Position numbers and translations under genes: made by a program. Of a stretch of 64,000 nt of DNA, positions 50,537 to 63,300 are shown piece by piece. The notes under the pieces were generated by a model, which did not search any database, was not told the origin of the DNA, and worked only from the letters and a program-made list of their open reading frames with translations. Origin of the DNA: a virus (Duplodnaviria > Heunggongvirae > Uroviricota > Caudoviricetes); the IMG/VR virus record IMGVR_UViG_2740892219_000010, positions 15,486 through 79,485 of that record, one strand, 5' to 3'. Within the stretch, counting starts at the first letter, position 1; each line of letters starts with the position of its first letter.

Positions 50537-52990
50537 ATGAGTACCACAACACGAAAATTTAAAACCGTTATCACTGATACGGGTGCAAAAAAATTAGCAC
50601 AGGCAGCCGCACCAGATGGCAAACCCGTCCGCCTGACACATATGGCCGTGGGTGACGGCGGCGGTACTTTACCCACGCCAGACAGTAAGCAGACCCGTCT
50701 CGTGCATGAGGTGTGGCGACATACCGTTAATCGCGTCTTCCTGGACGCAACACATCAGAACCGCATTATTGCGGAGCTGGTTATTCCTCCAGAAACGGGC
50801 GGATTCTGGATCCGGGAAATTGGTGTGTTTGATGAGCACGGCGATTTAATCGCGGTGGGCAATACTGCCGAAAGTTACAAGCCAGCCGTTGCCGAAGGGT
50901 CAGGGCGTGCGCAAACATTTCGCACCATCCTGACTGTATCCAGCACTGCCACCGTGGCGCTTACTGTGGATAACACCATGGTGATGGCCACAGCGGATTA
51001 CGTGGATAACAAACTAAAAGAGCATGAACAGTCACGACGTCACCCGGATGCCTCGCTGACCGCAAAAGGTTTTACTCAGTTAAGCAGTGCGACCAGCAGC
51101 ACCTCCGAGTCACTGGCAGCAACGCCAAAGGCAGTAAAATCAGCCTATGACAATGCTGAGAAACGTCTGCAGAAAGACCAGAACGGTAACGATATTCCAG
51201 ATAAGGGCGCTTTCCTGAACAACATTAATGCGGTCAGCAAAACCGACTTTGCTGCTAAGCATGGCATGCGTTATGTGCGCGTTAATGCTCCGGCAGGTGC
51301 AACACCGGGGAAATATTACCCTGTTGTTGTTATGCGCTCTGCTGGCTCAGTAAGCGAGCTGGCATCAAGAGTAATTATTACTACCGCAACACGAACTGCG
51401 AACGATCCACTAAATAACTGTGAGTTTAATGGATTCGTTATGCCTGGCGGCTGGACTGACAGGGGGCGTTATGCCTATGGAATGTTCTGGCAATATCAAA
51501 ACAATGAACGAGCCATTCACTCAATAATGATGAGTAATAAGGGCGATGATTTGCGCTCTGTGTTCTATGTTGATGGCGCTGCTTTCCCTGTTTTTGCGTT
51601 TATCGAAGATGGTCTGTCAATATCCGTTCCGGCCGCAGATCTCGTTGTCAATGATACGACCTATAAGTTTGGAGCAATAAATCCGGCGACAGAATGTGTC
51701 GCGGCTGACGTTATCCTTGATTTTAAAAGTGGGCGCGGTTTTTATGAGTCCCATTCGTTAATCGTTAACGACAATTTGTCGTGTAAAAAACTGTTCGCAA
51801 CAGACGAAATTGTAGCGCGCGGCGGCAATCAGATTCGAATGATAGGCGGGGAATACGGTGCGTTATGGAGAAATGACGGCGCTAAAACTTACCTGCTGCT
51901 TACCAACAAAGGTGATGTTTATGGCGAGCATAATGCATTGAGAGCGTTTGCTGTTGATAACGCAACTGGTGAACTGACTGTTGGAACCAAACTGTCCGCA
52001 AGTCTGAACGGTAACGCATCGACAGCTACAAAGCTGCAAACGCCCAGACGGGTTTCTGGGGTTGAGTTTGATGGTTCCAAAGATATTACTTTAACCGCTG
52101 CGCATGTTGCTGCTTTTGCCAGAAGAGCAACGGGTACGTATGCCGATGCTGATGGGGGCGTTCCCTGGAATGCTGAATCAGGCGCTTACAATGTCACCCG
52201 CTCTGGCGACAGCTATATTCTGGTTAACTTCTATACCGGAGTCGGAAGTTGCTGCACCTTGCAGATGAAGGCGCATTACAGAAATGGAGGCCTGTTCTAC
52301 CGTTCATCAAGAGACGGCTATGGTTTTGAAGAGGATTGGGATCAGCTTTACACATCGGCACATCCTCCGACAGAGCTTTACCCTGTGGGGGCTCCAATTC
52401 CGTGGCCTTCTGATTCAGTACCTACAGGCTATGCCATTATGCAGGGGCAAAGTTTTGATAAAGGCTCTTATCCTAAACTTGCGGTTGCCTATCCGTCCGG
52501 GGTTATTCCTGATATGCGTGGCTGGACAATTAAGGGTAAACCTGCCAGTGGTCGCGCCGTATTGTCTCAGGAACAGGATGGCATTAAGTCACACACCCAC
52601 AGTGCCAGCGCATCAAATACTGACCTCGGTACTAAAACGACCAGCTCATTTGATTACGGGACAAAAACGGTAAGCACGTTTAACCACGGTACAAAAACGA
52701 CAAACAATACGGGAGCACATACGCACACTGTCGGTGGTCGCTATGGTGGTGACTCTGTTGGTGGTAAACAACGCGTACAGGTATCAGGAACCAACCAGGT
52801 GTCAAGCTCTGCCGGAGCGCACGCCCATACTGTTGATATTGGTCAGCATAATCACACGGTTGGCATTGGTGCCCATGCACACACTGTGGCATTGGGTGCG
52901 CACGGACATACCATCACGGTTAACGCTACTGGTAATGCGGAAAACACCGTAAAAAACATTGCATATAACTATATTGTGAGGCTTGCATGA
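50537..52990 (+). CDS. H: Tail fibre protein gpH-like with His-rich (GAHxH) C-terminal repeats
   Basis: 817 aa; C-terminus has repeated [35 protein letters not shown]. Confidence 0.8.
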
Positions 52991-53856
52991 TTAATTTAAT
53001 TCTTTCAGCACCAGTACCTGAAATGGCTGAAGCATTTAAGCGGGTATTCGCAAATGCAGATAATGTGGATGTTGTAGAAAAACCATTTGAAGCAATCCCG
53101 GAATTTGACTGCATGGTCAGTGCGGCAAACAGTTTCGGGCTAATGGATGGCGGCGTTGACACTGCCATTACTGCATTCTTTGGTACTCAGTTACAGACAC
53201 GTGTTCAGAATCATATTCTTCGTGAATATCTTGGTGAGCAGCCTGTAGGCACTGCATTTGTTATTGAAACGGGGGATAACAACCATCCCTGGCTGGTACA
53301 TGCGCCAACAATGCGCGTTCCGCTGACCATTGACGGAACAGACGCTGTATATAACGCCACGTGGGCTGCTTTACTTGCCATCTTTCAGCACAATAAAAAT
53401 GCAACGACAGACAGGAAAATAAAGACGGTGGTATTCCCTGCAATGGGGGCCGGATGTGGTCAGGTGCCGTTTGAAAGTGTTGCCCGGCAGATGAAGCAGG
53501 CATGGGATAACTTTAATAAAAAAACAGAAGCAATTAACTGGGAATACGCACACTCCCGCCAGTTGGCAGTATTTAATACATGCGCGTACTGCCCGGGTGC
53601 TCCTGTTTGTCGTTATGCGGATATTAAATATATTGGACTTGGCGATTACCGAACGTATTGCTTACGGTCGGGGCAGGTATGCATTAATCCTGAACATCAG
53701 GTTGATGACGTGCTGACTAATAATCGTTCTCGCCCGGGGGCACATATGCATCAGATTAATCCGATAAAATCCGTAGGTAATATTGCCATTGGCGCACACA
53801 GCCACGGAAGGAATATCACCATTGGTGCTCATTCCCATACCCCACATAAACAATAA
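52987..53856 (+). CDS. Macro-domain protein with Cys-rich segment and tail-fibre-like GAHxH C-terminus
   Basis: 289 aa; [26 protein letters not shown] and [14 protein letters not shown] match macro-domain signatures (cf. YmdB); C-terminal GAHMHQ, GAHSHG, GAHSHT repeats; ATGA-coupled to H. Confidence 0.65.
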
Positions 53857-53880
53857 TTCTTTCTCTGATTAGAGGTGAAA

Positions 53881-54456
53881 ATGACTTTCAGAATGAGTGC
53901 TGAAGCACAAACCATTCGCGTATTTAATTATCTCGATGGTACAAATGAATTTATTGGAGAAGGTGACGCATATATTCCACCGCATACAGGTCTGCCTGCA
54001 AACAGCACAGATATTGCGCCTCCTGATATTCCAGCGGGTTTTGCCGCCGTTTTCAATGCAGATGAAATGAAATGGGAACTGATGGAAGACCATCGCGGAA
54101 AGACTGTCTATGAAACAAAAACAGGAGCAGCCATTTATATTTCTGAACTTGGCGCATTACCATCTGATGTAACAACAATTTCCCCGACCGGCAACTATCA
54201 GAAATGGAACGGGAATGCGTGGGTGGACGATGAGAGCGCAGAACGTGATGCGCTTGTCAGGGCAGCAGAGTCCCGGAAGAAAGAGCAGATTGCATATGCA
54301 GGTGAAATTATTGCCACTCTGCAGGATGCTGTCGATTTGGATATGGCTACAGAAGAAGAGAAATTAAGTCTGACAAAATGGAAAAAATATCGGGTATTAC
54401 TTAACCGCGTTCAGCCAGAAAATGCCCCTGATATAGAGTGGCCAGAATTAGTGTAA
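53881..54456 (+). CDS. G: Tail fibre assembly chaperone gpG-like
   Basis: ATG 53881 with RBS; C-terminus [34 protein letters not shown] parallels recalled P2 G. Confidence 0.75.
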
Positions 54457-54476
54457 AAGTAAGGTGATTTAAGGAG

Positions 54477-54509
54477 CAAAACCGCCAATATATTTATTAG
54501 CGGTTTTTT
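54477..54509. terminator. Putative bidirectional terminator between convergent G and U
   Basis: aaaaccgc...gcggtttttt hairpin with flanking A and T runs. Confidence 0.45.
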
Positions 54510-62928: not shown

Positions 62929-63054
62929 ATACAAAAAAACCACCCGAAGGTGGTTTCACGACACTGCTTATTGCTTTGATTTTATTCTTATCTTCCCCAT
63001 GGTACCCGGAGCGGGACTTGAACCCGCACAGCGCGAACGCCGAGGGATTTTAAA
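62929..63054. repeat. att direct repeat copy 2 (126 bp), overlapping the 3-prime half of intact tRNA-Leu
   Basis: 125/126 identical to 28088-28213. Confidence 0.9.
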
Positions 63055-63086
63055 TCCCTTGTGTCTACCGATTCCACCATCCGGGC
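63000..63086 (-). tRNA. leuZ: tRNA-Leu
   Basis: 87-nt minus-strand sequence, reverse complement matches recalled E. coli leuZ including 3-prime CCA. Confidence 0.9.
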
Positions 63087-63097
63087 TCGGGAAAAAT

Positions 63098-63171
63098 TGG
63101 AGGCGCGTTCCGGAGTCGAACCGGACTAGACGGATTTGCAATCCGCTACATAACCGCTTTGTTAACGCGCC
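63098..63171 (-). tRNA. cysT: tRNA-Cys
   Basis: 74 nt, reverse complement matches recalled E. coli tRNA-Cys. Confidence 0.9.
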
Positions 63172-63224
63172 AAATTCTTCAGGCTTTTCAGCCAGACATC
63201 CGCCTGAGCCGATGTCTTTTAAAC

Positions 63225-63300
<76 letters not shown>

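What the first reader, a model, noticed from the sequence alone, without database searches (positions are those of the whole stretch)
52987..53856. Macro-domain protein inserted between tail fibre H and chaperone G, with a tail-fibre-like His-rich tail
In P2 the H stop abuts G. Here a 289-aa gene is translationally coupled to H (ATGA overlap) and sits before G. Its N-terminal ~180 aa carry clear macro-domain motifs ([26 protein letters not shown]; [14 protein letters not shown]), then a Cys-rich stretch ([10 protein letters not shown]), then GAHxH repeats that mirror the C-terminus of H. The C-terminal mimicry suggests it could dock on the fibre tip, which would make it a virion-associated ADP-ribose-binding or hydrolysing (or deacetylating) activity. 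I do not recall a characterised macro-domain tail fibre component.
Basis: partly seen in the sequence, partly recalled or inferred. Interest (0 to 1): 0.8.

Follow-up and report, generated by a model that had tools for sequence, protein, structure and literature searches.

The report
Macro-domain enzyme gene in tail-fibre cassette
A real, widely annotated but never studied prophage gene sits between the tail-fibre gene and its chaperone gene; it encodes an ADP-ribose-processing (macro-domain) enzyme that has gained a fibre-like, histidine-rich tail, but nothing yet shows that it is part of the virus particle.

Summary
ORF 52987-53856 (+, 289 aa) overlaps the stop of fibre gene H (ATGA) and precedes Tfa (ATG 53881). 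Residues 1-197 are a confident macro domain (Pfam PF01661, E 3e-19). Its closest solved structure is yeast Poa1p, an ADP-ribose-1''-phosphate phosphatase. The core belongs to a very large family of stand-alone cellular macro proteins (47-55% identical). Only the enterobacterial phage form adds a 4-Cys stretch and 1-4 GAHxH repeats like the iron-binding repeats of the T4 gp37-type fibre tip that H carries. The gene is an optional insert of about 890 bp. Phages with 77-89% identical tips have Tfa directly after the fibre. In all 87 enterobacterial and viral loci surveyed it lies directly after a gp37-type tip, and Tfa follows in 86 (one locus ends first). This holds in P2-like and lambdoid phages and on plasmids. 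It is already annotated in Gifsy-1, SEN4/5, PHROG 2613 and 128 of 5,426 complete E. coli genomes, but I found no functional study. Docking on the fibre tip is untested: tails do not track their own fibre, and the tail is unstructured in a monomer model. The best reading is a late-expressed accessory ADP-ribose hydrolase, probably for counter-defence. Virion association stays open.

The parts
50537..52990 (+). Tail-fibre gene H (817 aa), a three-part mosaic: P88-like N-terminus, a middle section of other origin, and a T4 gp37-type tip.
   Evidence: Pfam Phage_tail_fib N-terminal domain, Gp34_trimer, Collar and gp37_C. The part up to 51150 is 93.7% identical to P88, and similarity is then lost.
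52337..52987 (+). T4 gp37-type receptor-binding tip of H (aa about 601-817: collar, HxH needle, head).
   Evidence: phmmer against PDB 2XGF (T4 gp37 tip) gives E 1.7e-77. It is 64% identical to T4 gp37 and is found in 715 phage records.
52805..52921 (+). GAHxH repeats of the descending needle strand of H (aa 757-795).
   Evidence: Read directly from the sequence. They align to the iron-binding HxH motifs of gp37 (PMC6957217).
52978..52981 (+). GAGG Shine-Dalgarno for the macro gene, inside the last codons of H. The same element serves Tfa in macro-less relatives.
   Evidence: Sequence. Junction comparison with STYP1.
52987..53856 (+). Macro-domain protein gene (289 aa). It is the coding part of an optional insert of about 890 bp between the H stop and the Tfa start.
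   Evidence: Clean insertion relative to STYP1, Chlobot and P24A7b.
52987..53577 (+). Poa1p-type macro domain (aa 1-197) with the signature [21 protein letters not shown] and GAGCG.
   Evidence: PF01661 E 3e-19. Model pLDDT 85-97. Yeast Poa1p (1njr) is the best match by fold (E 6e-9) and by profile (E 5e-10). dN/dS 0.11.
53578..53700 (+). Conserved 4-Cys region (aa 198-238; C202, C208, C225, C232) with a predicted beta-hairpin at 211-225. Possibly a metal-binding knuckle.
   Evidence: Conservation. Model pLDDT 58-71. dN/dS 0.25. No homologue outside the family.
53701..53853 (+). His-rich tail (aa 239-289) with three GAHxH repeats. The number and spacing of repeats vary between lineages.
   Evidence: dN/dS about 0.38. 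pLDDT below 40 as a monomer. No PDB match.
53881..54456 (+). Tail-fibre assembly chaperone Tfa/G (191 aa), with its own GAGG at 53872-53875 carried in by the insert.
   Evidence: Pfam Caudo_TAP E 8e-39. 91.4% nucleotide identity to the Tfa of macro-less STYP1.

Best explanation
The gene encodes an accessory enzyme, not a fibre subunit or a required chaperone. It is a Poa1p-type macro domain that binds an ADP-ribose derivative and most likely hydrolyses a substituent at the 1'' position. The domain was captured from a widespread family of stand-alone cellular macro proteins. It now travels inside the T4-gp37-type host-range cassette (fibre tip, macro gene, Tfa) of enterobacterial temperate phages. 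It has no promoter or terminator of its own and is translationally coupled to the fibre, so it is made late and together with the fibre. In this setting it gained a C-terminal extension of four cysteines plus HxH repeats. I infer that this extension forms a small metal-bound, fibre-like trimerisation or tethering element, possibly folded by the same Tfa. I infer the biological role to be counter-defence in the producing cell: removing ADP-ribose-derived immune signals or ADP-ribosyl marks at the time the fibre and its chaperone appear. Shown here: gene structure, fold and motifs, optional-insert status, strict synteny, cellular origin of the core, and purifying selection on all three regions. 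Inferred: catalytic activity and substrate, trimerisation and metal binding, and the counter-defence role.
For: Macro fold and motifs. Poa1p is the best match by both fold and profile. N48, D58, G154 and G158 are invariant from E. coli phages to Chloroflexota and a cyanophage. Strong purifying selection on the macro domain (dN/dS 0.11). Cellular origin: at least 7,992 stand-alone homologues at E <= 1e-10; 73 of 73 loci from other phyla lack a tip, a Tfa or the extension and share no conserved neighbours. Optional insert: STYP1 (tip 89% aa, Tfa 91% nt), Chlobot and P24A7b have Tfa directly after the fibre, and T4 gp37 carries the same tip type. Strict synteny: all 87 loci have a gp37-type tip directly upstream and 86 have Tfa downstream, in lambdoid Gifsy-1, P2-like SEN5 and Chuche, and a plasmid. 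No promoter or terminator signal above chance. The extension is confined to the fibre-linked form, keeps HxH even where the middle region differs, as in Izhakiella, and is under constraint. HxH triplets bind iron and are essential for gp37 folding (PMC6957217). Precedents: the T4 macrodomain AdfM counters DarTG2 (bioRxiv 10.1101/2025.11.20.689424); fibre plus chaperone determines sensitivity to ADPR-signalling Thoeris II (bioRxiv 10.64898/2026.06.04.730250); phage Macro genes among morphogenesis genes are predicted to counter ADPr-based immunity (PMC9503650).
Against: No biochemical or genetic data exist for any family member. The second catalytic motif of MacroD enzymes, G[VIA][YF]G, is not kept (it reads G-C-G-Q), so the domain may bind rather than hydrolyse. 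Similarity to known counter-defence macro domains is weak: DarG E 0.0035-0.06 and Tk.4 E about 1e-2. Late expression is a poor fit for defences that act early. A purely cytoplasmic enzyme has no obvious need for a fibre-like tail.
Confidence: 0.4

Rival explanations
1. Virion component. The HxH/Cys tail trimerises like a fibre needle and attaches the macro domain to the fibre, to Tfa or to another part of the particle. The enzyme then travels with the virion, either displayed at the fibre or delivered at infection.
For: The gene is always embedded between structural genes and coupled to the fibre. The fibre-like tail is found only in the fibre-linked form and is selected. A tail-less member of the same PHROG in Microcystis phage Mae-JY35 lies among genes matching PHROG families for virion structural, ejection and released-upon-infection proteins. 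A published survey predicts that phage Macro proteins encoded among morphogenesis genes are packaged (PMC9503650).
Against: No proteomic evidence was found. There is no partner-specific covariation with the fibre. The protein has no baseplate- or fibre-attachment domain and lacks the gp37 C-terminal collar segment. A protein on the outside of the fibre tip would not reach cytoplasmic ADP-ribose substrates (inference). The published prediction concerns head packaging, not fibres. 'Tail protein' labels on relatives look like annotation carry-over.
Confidence: 0.25
2. Metabolic or RNA-repair clean-up enzyme. It would be a plain ADP-ribose-1''-phosphate phosphatase, like Poa1p, that removes by-products of 2'-phosphotransferase-type RNA repair or NAD turnover during late infection, with no direct link to immunity or to the fibre.
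For: Poa1p is the closest characterised relative. The jumbo-phage relative in FBKp24 lies five genes from an RNA 2'-phosphotransferase gene. The cellular family looks like ordinary chromosomal genes with no conserved neighbours.
Against: This does not explain the strict placement in the fibre cassette across three phage types or the gain and maintenance of the HxH/Cys extension. I did not check whether these small temperate phages carry a 2'-phosphotransferase or RNA ligase of their own.
Confidence: 0.15
3. Fibre-assembly helper. It would be a second chaperone, or a metal (iron or zinc) donor for the HxH needle of the fibre, with the macro fold serving mainly as a scaffold.
For: Its position between fibre and chaperone. 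His- and Cys-rich segments are plausible metal ligands. HxH iron sites are essential for gp37 folding (PMC6957217).
Against: Nearly identical tips and Tfa proteins work without it in isolated phages: STYP1, and T4, whose gp37 carries this tip type. The strictly conserved ADP-ribose-binding motifs and the dN/dS of 0.11 point to an enzyme or ligand binder. There is no similarity to Caudo_TAP or gp38.
Confidence: 0.08
4. Selfish or neutral passenger. The gene would be kept only because it lies between the two conserved stretches that I take to act as recombination linkers of the host-range cassette, and the tail would be debris from a fibre gene.
For: It lies in a conserved island between hypervariable segments. 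Frameshifted and truncated copies exist.
Against: All three regions are under purifying selection, and intact ORFs were recovered from loci of Escherichia, Salmonella, Erwinia and Izhakiella. There is no DNA similarity between the tail and the fibre.
Confidence: 0.05

Closest known systems
Yeast Poa1p / Ymx7 (PDB 1njr), ADP-ribose-1''-phosphate phosphatase
   Same: Best match by both fold (Foldseek E 6e-9, 223 aligned columns) and sequence profile (E 5e-10). Both share the signature VS(P/A)(G/A)NS(Y/F)G..GG.D and H.PT..P.
   Different: Only about 19% identity. Poa1p has no Cys/His extension and is a eukaryotic housekeeping enzyme. Activity of the phage protein is untested.
Stand-alone cellular macro proteins of about 200-215 aa (Chloroflexota, cyanobacteria, Acidobacteriota, Bacteroidota and others)
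   Same: 47-55% identical over residues 1-195, with the same invariant motifs.
   Different: They have no C-terminal extension, no phage context and no conserved neighbours. They too are uncharacterised.
Phage counter-defence macrodomains: T4 AdfM (Tk.4) and DarG-like antitoxins
   Same: Phage-encoded macro domains proposed or shown to reverse ADP-ribosylation by host defences (bioRxiv 10.1101/2025.11.20.689424; PMC13309987).
   Different: A different macro clade: DarG E 0.0035-0.06 and Tk.4 E about 1e-2. Here the gene lies in a late structural operon and carries a fibre-like tail.
HxH iron-binding needle of the T4 gp37 receptor-binding tip (PDB 2XGF)
   Same: The G-A-H-x-H repeat motif. In gp37, three chains contribute HxH to each iron site (PMC6957217). 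The neighbouring H protein carries this very tip.
   Different: Only 1-4 repeats (two or three in most members). There is no collar, head domain or C-terminal NIAFNYIVRLA segment, and spacing varies (11 residues here against 9 in H). No PDB match, and no evidence yet of trimer or metal.
gp38-type adhesins of T2- and S16-like phages
   Same: A protein encoded directly after the distal fibre gene. In those phages it binds the fibre tip and stays on the virion (from memory).
   Different: No sequence or fold similarity. Here a separate Tfa chaperone is also present, and the protein is optional.
Phage Macro, NADAR and Nudix genes among morphogenesis genes, predicted to be virion-packaged (Iyer et al. 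2022, PMC9503650)
   Same: A macro gene inside a late structural cluster, with a predicted role against NAD+/ADPr-based immunity.
   Different: That prediction concerns head packaging and is generic. The paper does not contain the term 'tail fiber', so the tail-fibre cassette placement and the HxH tail are not described there.

Membership tests
Macro domain superfamily (Pfam PF01661) | Profile match above the curated gathering score | tested here: met
   69.6 bits against a cut-off of 22, E 3e-19, residues 44-169 covering profile positions 1-118 of 118.
Macro domain superfamily (Pfam PF01661) | Three-layer alpha/beta/alpha macro fold | tested here: met
   AlphaFold model with pLDDT 85-97 over most of residues 1-197. 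Foldseek probability 1.0 to many solved macro domains.
Macro domain superfamily (Pfam PF01661) | Binding or hydrolysis of ADP-ribose derivatives | not testable with these tools
   Needs biochemistry. Only the conservation of the ligand loops (N48, D58, G154, G158) was shown.
Poa1p-like macro clade (overlaps Pfam Macro_2, PF14519) | Closest relationship to Poa1p by sequence profile and by fold, with a shared motif signature | tested here: met
   1njr is the top hit by Foldseek (E 6e-9; next hits about 1e-5) and by hmmsearch (E 5e-10).
Poa1p-like macro clade (overlaps Pfam Macro_2, PF14519) | Pfam Macro_2 match above the gathering score | tested here: not met
   22.4 bits against a cut-off of 27 for the window protein. 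Two of four cellular relatives tested reach 29 bits.
MacroD-type hydrolases (MacroD1/2, YmdB, OiMacroD) | First catalytic motif N-x6-G-G-[VLI]-D | tested here: met
   N48-SFGLMD-G55-G56-V57-D58. N48, G55, G56 and D58 are invariant and V57 is at least 90% conserved. The motif definition is from memory.
MacroD-type hydrolases (MacroD1/2, YmdB, OiMacroD) | Second motif G-[VIA]-[YF]-G with the aromatic residue over the distal ribose | tested here: not met
   The aligned positions read G156-C157-G158-Q159, so there is no aromatic residue, as in TTHA0132.
DarG-type antitoxin or anti-DarT macrodomain | Match to DarG models and presence of the DarT-binding C-terminal domain | tested here: not met
   NCBIfam DarG E 0.062, 12.6 bits against a cut-off of 250. 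PADLOC DarG E 0.0035 over 39 residues. The C-terminus is unrelated.
Tail-fibre protein (T4 gp37 / P2 H type) | N-terminal attachment domain, collar, and C-terminal NIAFNYIVRLA segment around the HxH needle | tested here: not met
   Only the HxH repeats are shared (BLASTP E 5e-5 over 38 aa). No fibre Pfam domains and no PDB match for residues 176-289.
Tail-fibre assembly chaperone (Caudo_TAP, gp38) | Caudo_TAP profile match, and being required for fibre assembly | tested here: not met
   No Caudo_TAP hit. Closely related tip and Tfa pairs occur without the gene in isolated phages.
Moron (autonomous accessory gene unit in a prophage) | Own promoter and terminator flanking the insert | tested here: not met
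   Three promoter-like sites against 4.2 expected, none upstream of the gene. There is no terminator between H and Tfa, and the start overlaps the H stop.
PHROG phrog_2613 (function unknown) | Profile match | tested here: met
   E 1.1e-136 over residues 1-258. Mae-JY35's 185-aa macro protein also matches (E 2e-51).

The most novel reading that the evidence does not exclude
The HxH/Cys extension is a miniature iron- or zinc-bound trimeric needle, folded by Tfa. It would tie a Poa1p-type ADP-ribose hydrolase physically to the fibre-chaperone complex or to the virion. Either outcome would be new. One is the first enzymatically active ADP-ribose-processing accessory of a tail fibre. The other is a trigger-antidote linkage, in which the gene that suppresses ADPR-based immunity (for example Thoeris signals or ADP-ribosyl marks) is inherited and expressed together with the fibre tip that triggers it.
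Probability: 0.2. Interest if true: 0.8.

Novelty: new variant of a known kind. Interest (0 to 1): 0.5.

Why it matters
Phage macro domains are emerging as tools against ADP-ribose-based bacterial immunity, and a recent preprint implicates tail fibres with their chaperones in triggering such immunity. This family sits inside a host-range cassette that is exchanged among P2-like phages, lambdoid phages and plasmids of Escherichia, Salmonella, Erwinia and relatives. About 2.4% of complete E. coli genomes carry it, as does Gifsy-1 of Salmonella Typhimurium LT2. If it suppresses immunity or rides on the virion, then swapping a fibre cassette changes more than receptor specificity. That matters for phage host-range engineering and for pseudotyped P2 and tailocin designs that borrow these cassettes. 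The work also has a practical annotation result. The label 'phage tail protein' on this family, including thousands of cellular macro proteins, appears to rest on gene position alone.

Tried and rejected
1. Recent duplication of the fibre 3' end as the origin of the His tail. Rejected: no DNA similarity.
2. The Cys/His module as a general docking module shared with other proteins. Rejected: an exhaustive HMMER search with residues 176-289 found only fragments of the same family. The one outside hit (P0124, 1,529 aa) is a spurious repeat match.
3. Partner-specific co-evolution of macro tail and fibre repeats. Only a weak effect, confounded by shared lineage.
4. 'Tail protein' annotations of jumbo-phage homologues as independent evidence of tail association. 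Rejected: those genes lie among nucleotide and RNA-repair genes.
5. Conserved neighbours of the cellular homologues as a functional clue. None found beyond within-lineage synteny.
6. Defence-system membership. PADLOC gave only a marginal DarG hit.
7. Own promoter or terminator. None above chance.
8. Virion proteomics for SEN4/SEN5. The paper has none.
9. Structure of the C-terminal 90 residues.
Full report
OBSERVATION. Its ATG overlaps the TGA of the 817-aa tail-fibre gene H (50537..52990) as ATGA. A GAGG Shine-Dalgarno (52978-52981) lies within the last H codons. The tail-fibre assembly gene (Pfam Caudo_TAP, E 8e-39) follows. It most likely starts at ATG 53881, which matches the start used in relatives. 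No promoter-like or terminator-like site above chance separates H, the macro gene and Tfa, so they form one late transcription unit.

THE MACRO DOMAIN. Pfam Macro (PF01661) matches residues 44-169 over its full length, at 69.6 bits against a cut-off of 22. A first AlphaFold model from 30 close homologues was mediocre. A second, from 74 sequences that included cellular relatives, gave pLDDT 85-97 over most of residues 1-197. Foldseek against the PDB returns macro domains only, and yeast Poa1p/Ymx7 (1njr, an ADP-ribose-1''-phosphatase) is clearly first (E 6e-9, 223 aligned columns). TTHA0132, macroH2A, MacroD2, YmdB and OiMacroD follow at about 1e-5 to 1e-4. A profile search of PDB sequences gives the same order, with 1njr at E 5e-10. 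Poa1p shares the family signature VS(A/P)(A/G)NS(F/Y)G..GG.D and H.PT..P. The first MacroD catalytic motif, N-x6-GG[VLI]D, is present (N48...G55-G56-V57-D58). The second, G[VIA][YF]G, is not: the aligned residues are G-C-G-Q, as in TTHA0132. DarG-type models match only marginally, and the T4 Tk.4/AdfM family is a remote structural match (E about 1e-2). The domain is therefore a Poa1p-type macro domain, not a DarG-type or canonical MacroD-type one.

ORIGIN OF THE CORE. A scan of one genome per bacterial species found 73 loci outside the Enterobacterales that encode proteins 47-55% identical over residues 1-195. They come from Chloroflexota, Acidobacteriota, cyanobacteria, Bacteroidota, Planctomycetota and others. 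A profile search found at least 7,992 such proteins at E <= 1e-10. The 120 best listed are 197-225 aa long. None of the 73 loci has a fibre tip, a Tfa or the C-terminal extension, and they share no conserved neighbours. N48, D54, G55, G56, D58, P107-T-M-R110, G154 and G158 are invariant across phage and cellular members. The phage gene thus carries a domain taken from a large, strongly conserved and still uncharacterised cellular enzyme family.

THE C-TERMINAL EXTENSION. All enterobacterial phage-borne members add about 70-110 residues. The extension has a conserved stretch with four cysteines (AYCP....C..A...YIG.GDYRTYC..SG..CI...HQ; C202, C225 and C232 invariant, C208 at least 90% conserved). 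This is followed by a variable number of (I/T)GAHxH repeats: one to four in 57 of 58 distinct coding sequences and none in one. An Izhakiella variant has a different Cys-rich middle region but again ends in HxH repeats. An exhaustive HMMER search of 1.84 billion representative proteins with residues 176-289 found only fragments of this same family. There is no PDB match. The repeats resemble those at the C-terminus of H (BLASTP E 5e-5), but with no DNA similarity. dN/dS is 0.11 for the macro domain, 0.25 for the Cys region and about 0.38 for the His tail. The tail is therefore under constraint, though less tightly than the rest. As a monomer it is predicted to be unstructured (pLDDT below 40). 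That would also be expected of a segment that folds only as a metal-bound trimer.

THE FIBRE TIP NEXT DOOR. H residues about 600-817 match the crystal structure of the T4 gp37 receptor-binding tip (2XGF) at E 1.7e-77, including the HxH repeats. In gp37, histidines from the three chains coordinate seven iron atoms. They are essential for folding, which also requires the chaperone gp38 (PMC6957217; PMC11705849 citing Bartual et al. 2010).

GENOMIC CONTEXT. The prophage is P88-like (Xuanwuvirus, Peduoviridae). Relative to P88, window 51151-54479 is replaced. P88 has an invertible fibre segment and an invertase there. The gp37-type tip occurs in 715 phage records, but only six records match at least 80% of the macro protein. 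The closest macro-less tips are STYP1 (89% aa), Chlobot (78%) and P24A7b (77%), and all have Tfa directly after the fibre. At DNA level the window matches STYP1 up to 52997 (84.6%) and again from 53880 (91.4%). The gene is therefore a clean insert of about 890 bp, which reuses the Shine-Dalgarno that serves Tfa in STYP1 and brings a new one for Tfa. In all 87 enterobacterial and IMG/VR loci, a gp37-type tip ends exactly where the macro gene starts. Tfa follows in 86 of them, and the remaining locus ends first. The same order is seen in lambdoid Gifsy-1 (STM2588.1n, annotated with Pfam Macro), P2-like SEN4/SEN5 and Chuche, and a 95-kb plasmid whose neighbouring genes include a holin and tail-fibre genes. 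In complete E. coli genomes the gene is present in 128 of 5,426, with 22 of the 130 copies on plasmids. Identity profiles show a conserved island made of the H 3' end, the macro gene and the Tfa 5' part. It is flanked by the hypervariable tip head and the Tfa C-terminal part. Macro tails match their own fibre's repeats only weakly: the median rank is about 12 of 49, and identical tails occur with different tips.

WHAT IS ALREADY KNOWN. RefSeq calls the protein 'macro domain-containing protein' or 'phage tail protein', and PHROGs holds it as phrog_2613, function unknown. I found no paper that characterises it. The SEN4/5 paper contains no virion proteomics. A survey of viral NAD+/ADPr systems predicts in general that phage Macro proteins encoded among morphogenesis genes are packaged into heads and counter ADPr-based immunity. 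That paper does not contain the term 'tail fiber'. The 'tail protein' label is also attached to jumbo-phage relatives that lie among nucleotide and RNA-repair genes and to cellular proteins of Chloroflexota and cyanobacteria. It appears to be a positional annotation that has spread. One independent hint of a link to late or virion genes exists. The 185-aa member in Microcystis phage Mae-JY35 lies among genes that match PHROG families described as virion structural, DNA-ejection and released-upon-infection proteins.

INTERPRETATION. The gene is not a fibre, because it lacks the attachment domain, the collar and the C-terminal segment. It is not a required chaperone, because closely related tip and Tfa pairs occur without it in isolated phages. 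It is not an autonomous moron, because it has no signals of its own. The best-supported reading is an accessory Poa1p-type ADP-ribose-derivative hydrolase or binder, made late together with the fibre, whose HxH/Cys extension forms a small metal-bound trimerisation or tethering element. I consider counter-defence in the producing cell the most likely role (confidence about 0.4). Three precedents support this: T4 AdfM against DarTG2 (bioRxiv 10.1101/2025.11.20.689424), fibre plus chaperone as determinants of Thoeris II activation (bioRxiv 10.64898/2026.06.04.730250), and the general prediction in PMC9503650. However, a macro domain displayed outside the cell would be separated from its known cytoplasmic substrates. 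Plain metabolic clean-up (0.15), help with fibre assembly or metal delivery (0.08) and neutral hitch-hiking (0.05) are less likely.

VERDICT. The family is common and already annotated, so the gene itself is not a discovery. What I could not find described is threefold: the architecture (a cellular-type macro enzyme plus a fibre-like HxH/Cys tail), its strict residence in the gp37-type host-range cassette across phage types, and the propagated mis-annotation. I rate it a new variant of a known kind, of moderate interest, with cheap decisive experiments available.

Noticed in passing
window 50537-52990: H is a three-part mosaic. Residues 1 to about 205 are P88-like (93.7% nucleotide identity up to 51150), the middle section (51151 to about 52336) is of other origin, and residues about 600-817 are a T4 gp37-type tip.
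   Followed up: partly
window 51151-54479 compared with L005 (phage P88) 15066-19452: P88 has an invertible fibre segment here, with a second inverted fibre-tip and Tfa pair plus a DNA invertase. This prophage has a single fixed tip, the macro gene and Tfa, and no invertase.
   Followed up: partly
P0128, P0130, P0188, P0206, P0233 (cellular proteins); L009 4911-5510; L012 3938-4585: Stand-alone macro proteins of Chloroflexota and cyanobacteria are named 'phage tail protein' in NCBI records. So are jumbo-phage macro genes that lie among nucleotide and RNA-repair genes. The name appears to have spread from the position of the enterobacterial prophage gene.
   Followed up: yes
window 53875-53883: The Tfa reading frame opens at GTG 53875, but the start used in macro-less relatives and the GAGG at 53872-53875 point to ATG 53881.
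   Followed up: yes
L018 120-1022 and L019 120-1022 (Izhakiella australiensis): A 300-aa variant of the macro protein has a different Cys-rich middle region (CDCGCG..., CRCG...) but still has an HxH-rich tail ending in HHGVKK. This suggests the middle module can be replaced while the His tail is kept.
   Followed up: partly
L011 3935-4489 (Microcystis phage Mae-JY35): A tail-less 185-aa member of the same PHROG lies among genes that match PHROG families for virion structural, DNA-ejection and released-upon-infection proteins. This is an independent case of the macro subfamily sitting in a late or virion gene cluster.
   Followed up: partly
L003 5001-5892 (E. coli plasmid p1919D3-2): 22 of the 130 copies in complete E. 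coli genomes are on plasmids. This copy is annotated as frameshifted, next to fragmented fibre genes and LPS-modifying genes.
   Followed up: no
window 63000-63300 (- strand): A tRNA-Leu(taa), tRNA-Cys(gca) and tRNA-Gly(gcc) cluster lies near the right end of the window. It is possibly related to the prophage boundary or attachment site.
   Followed up: no
P0024 (463 aa, one short metagenomic contig): A predicted fusion of ParM/StbA-like domains with the macro protein. P88-like phages carry a parM gene, so this may be a rearranged prophage or an assembly artefact.
   Followed up: no
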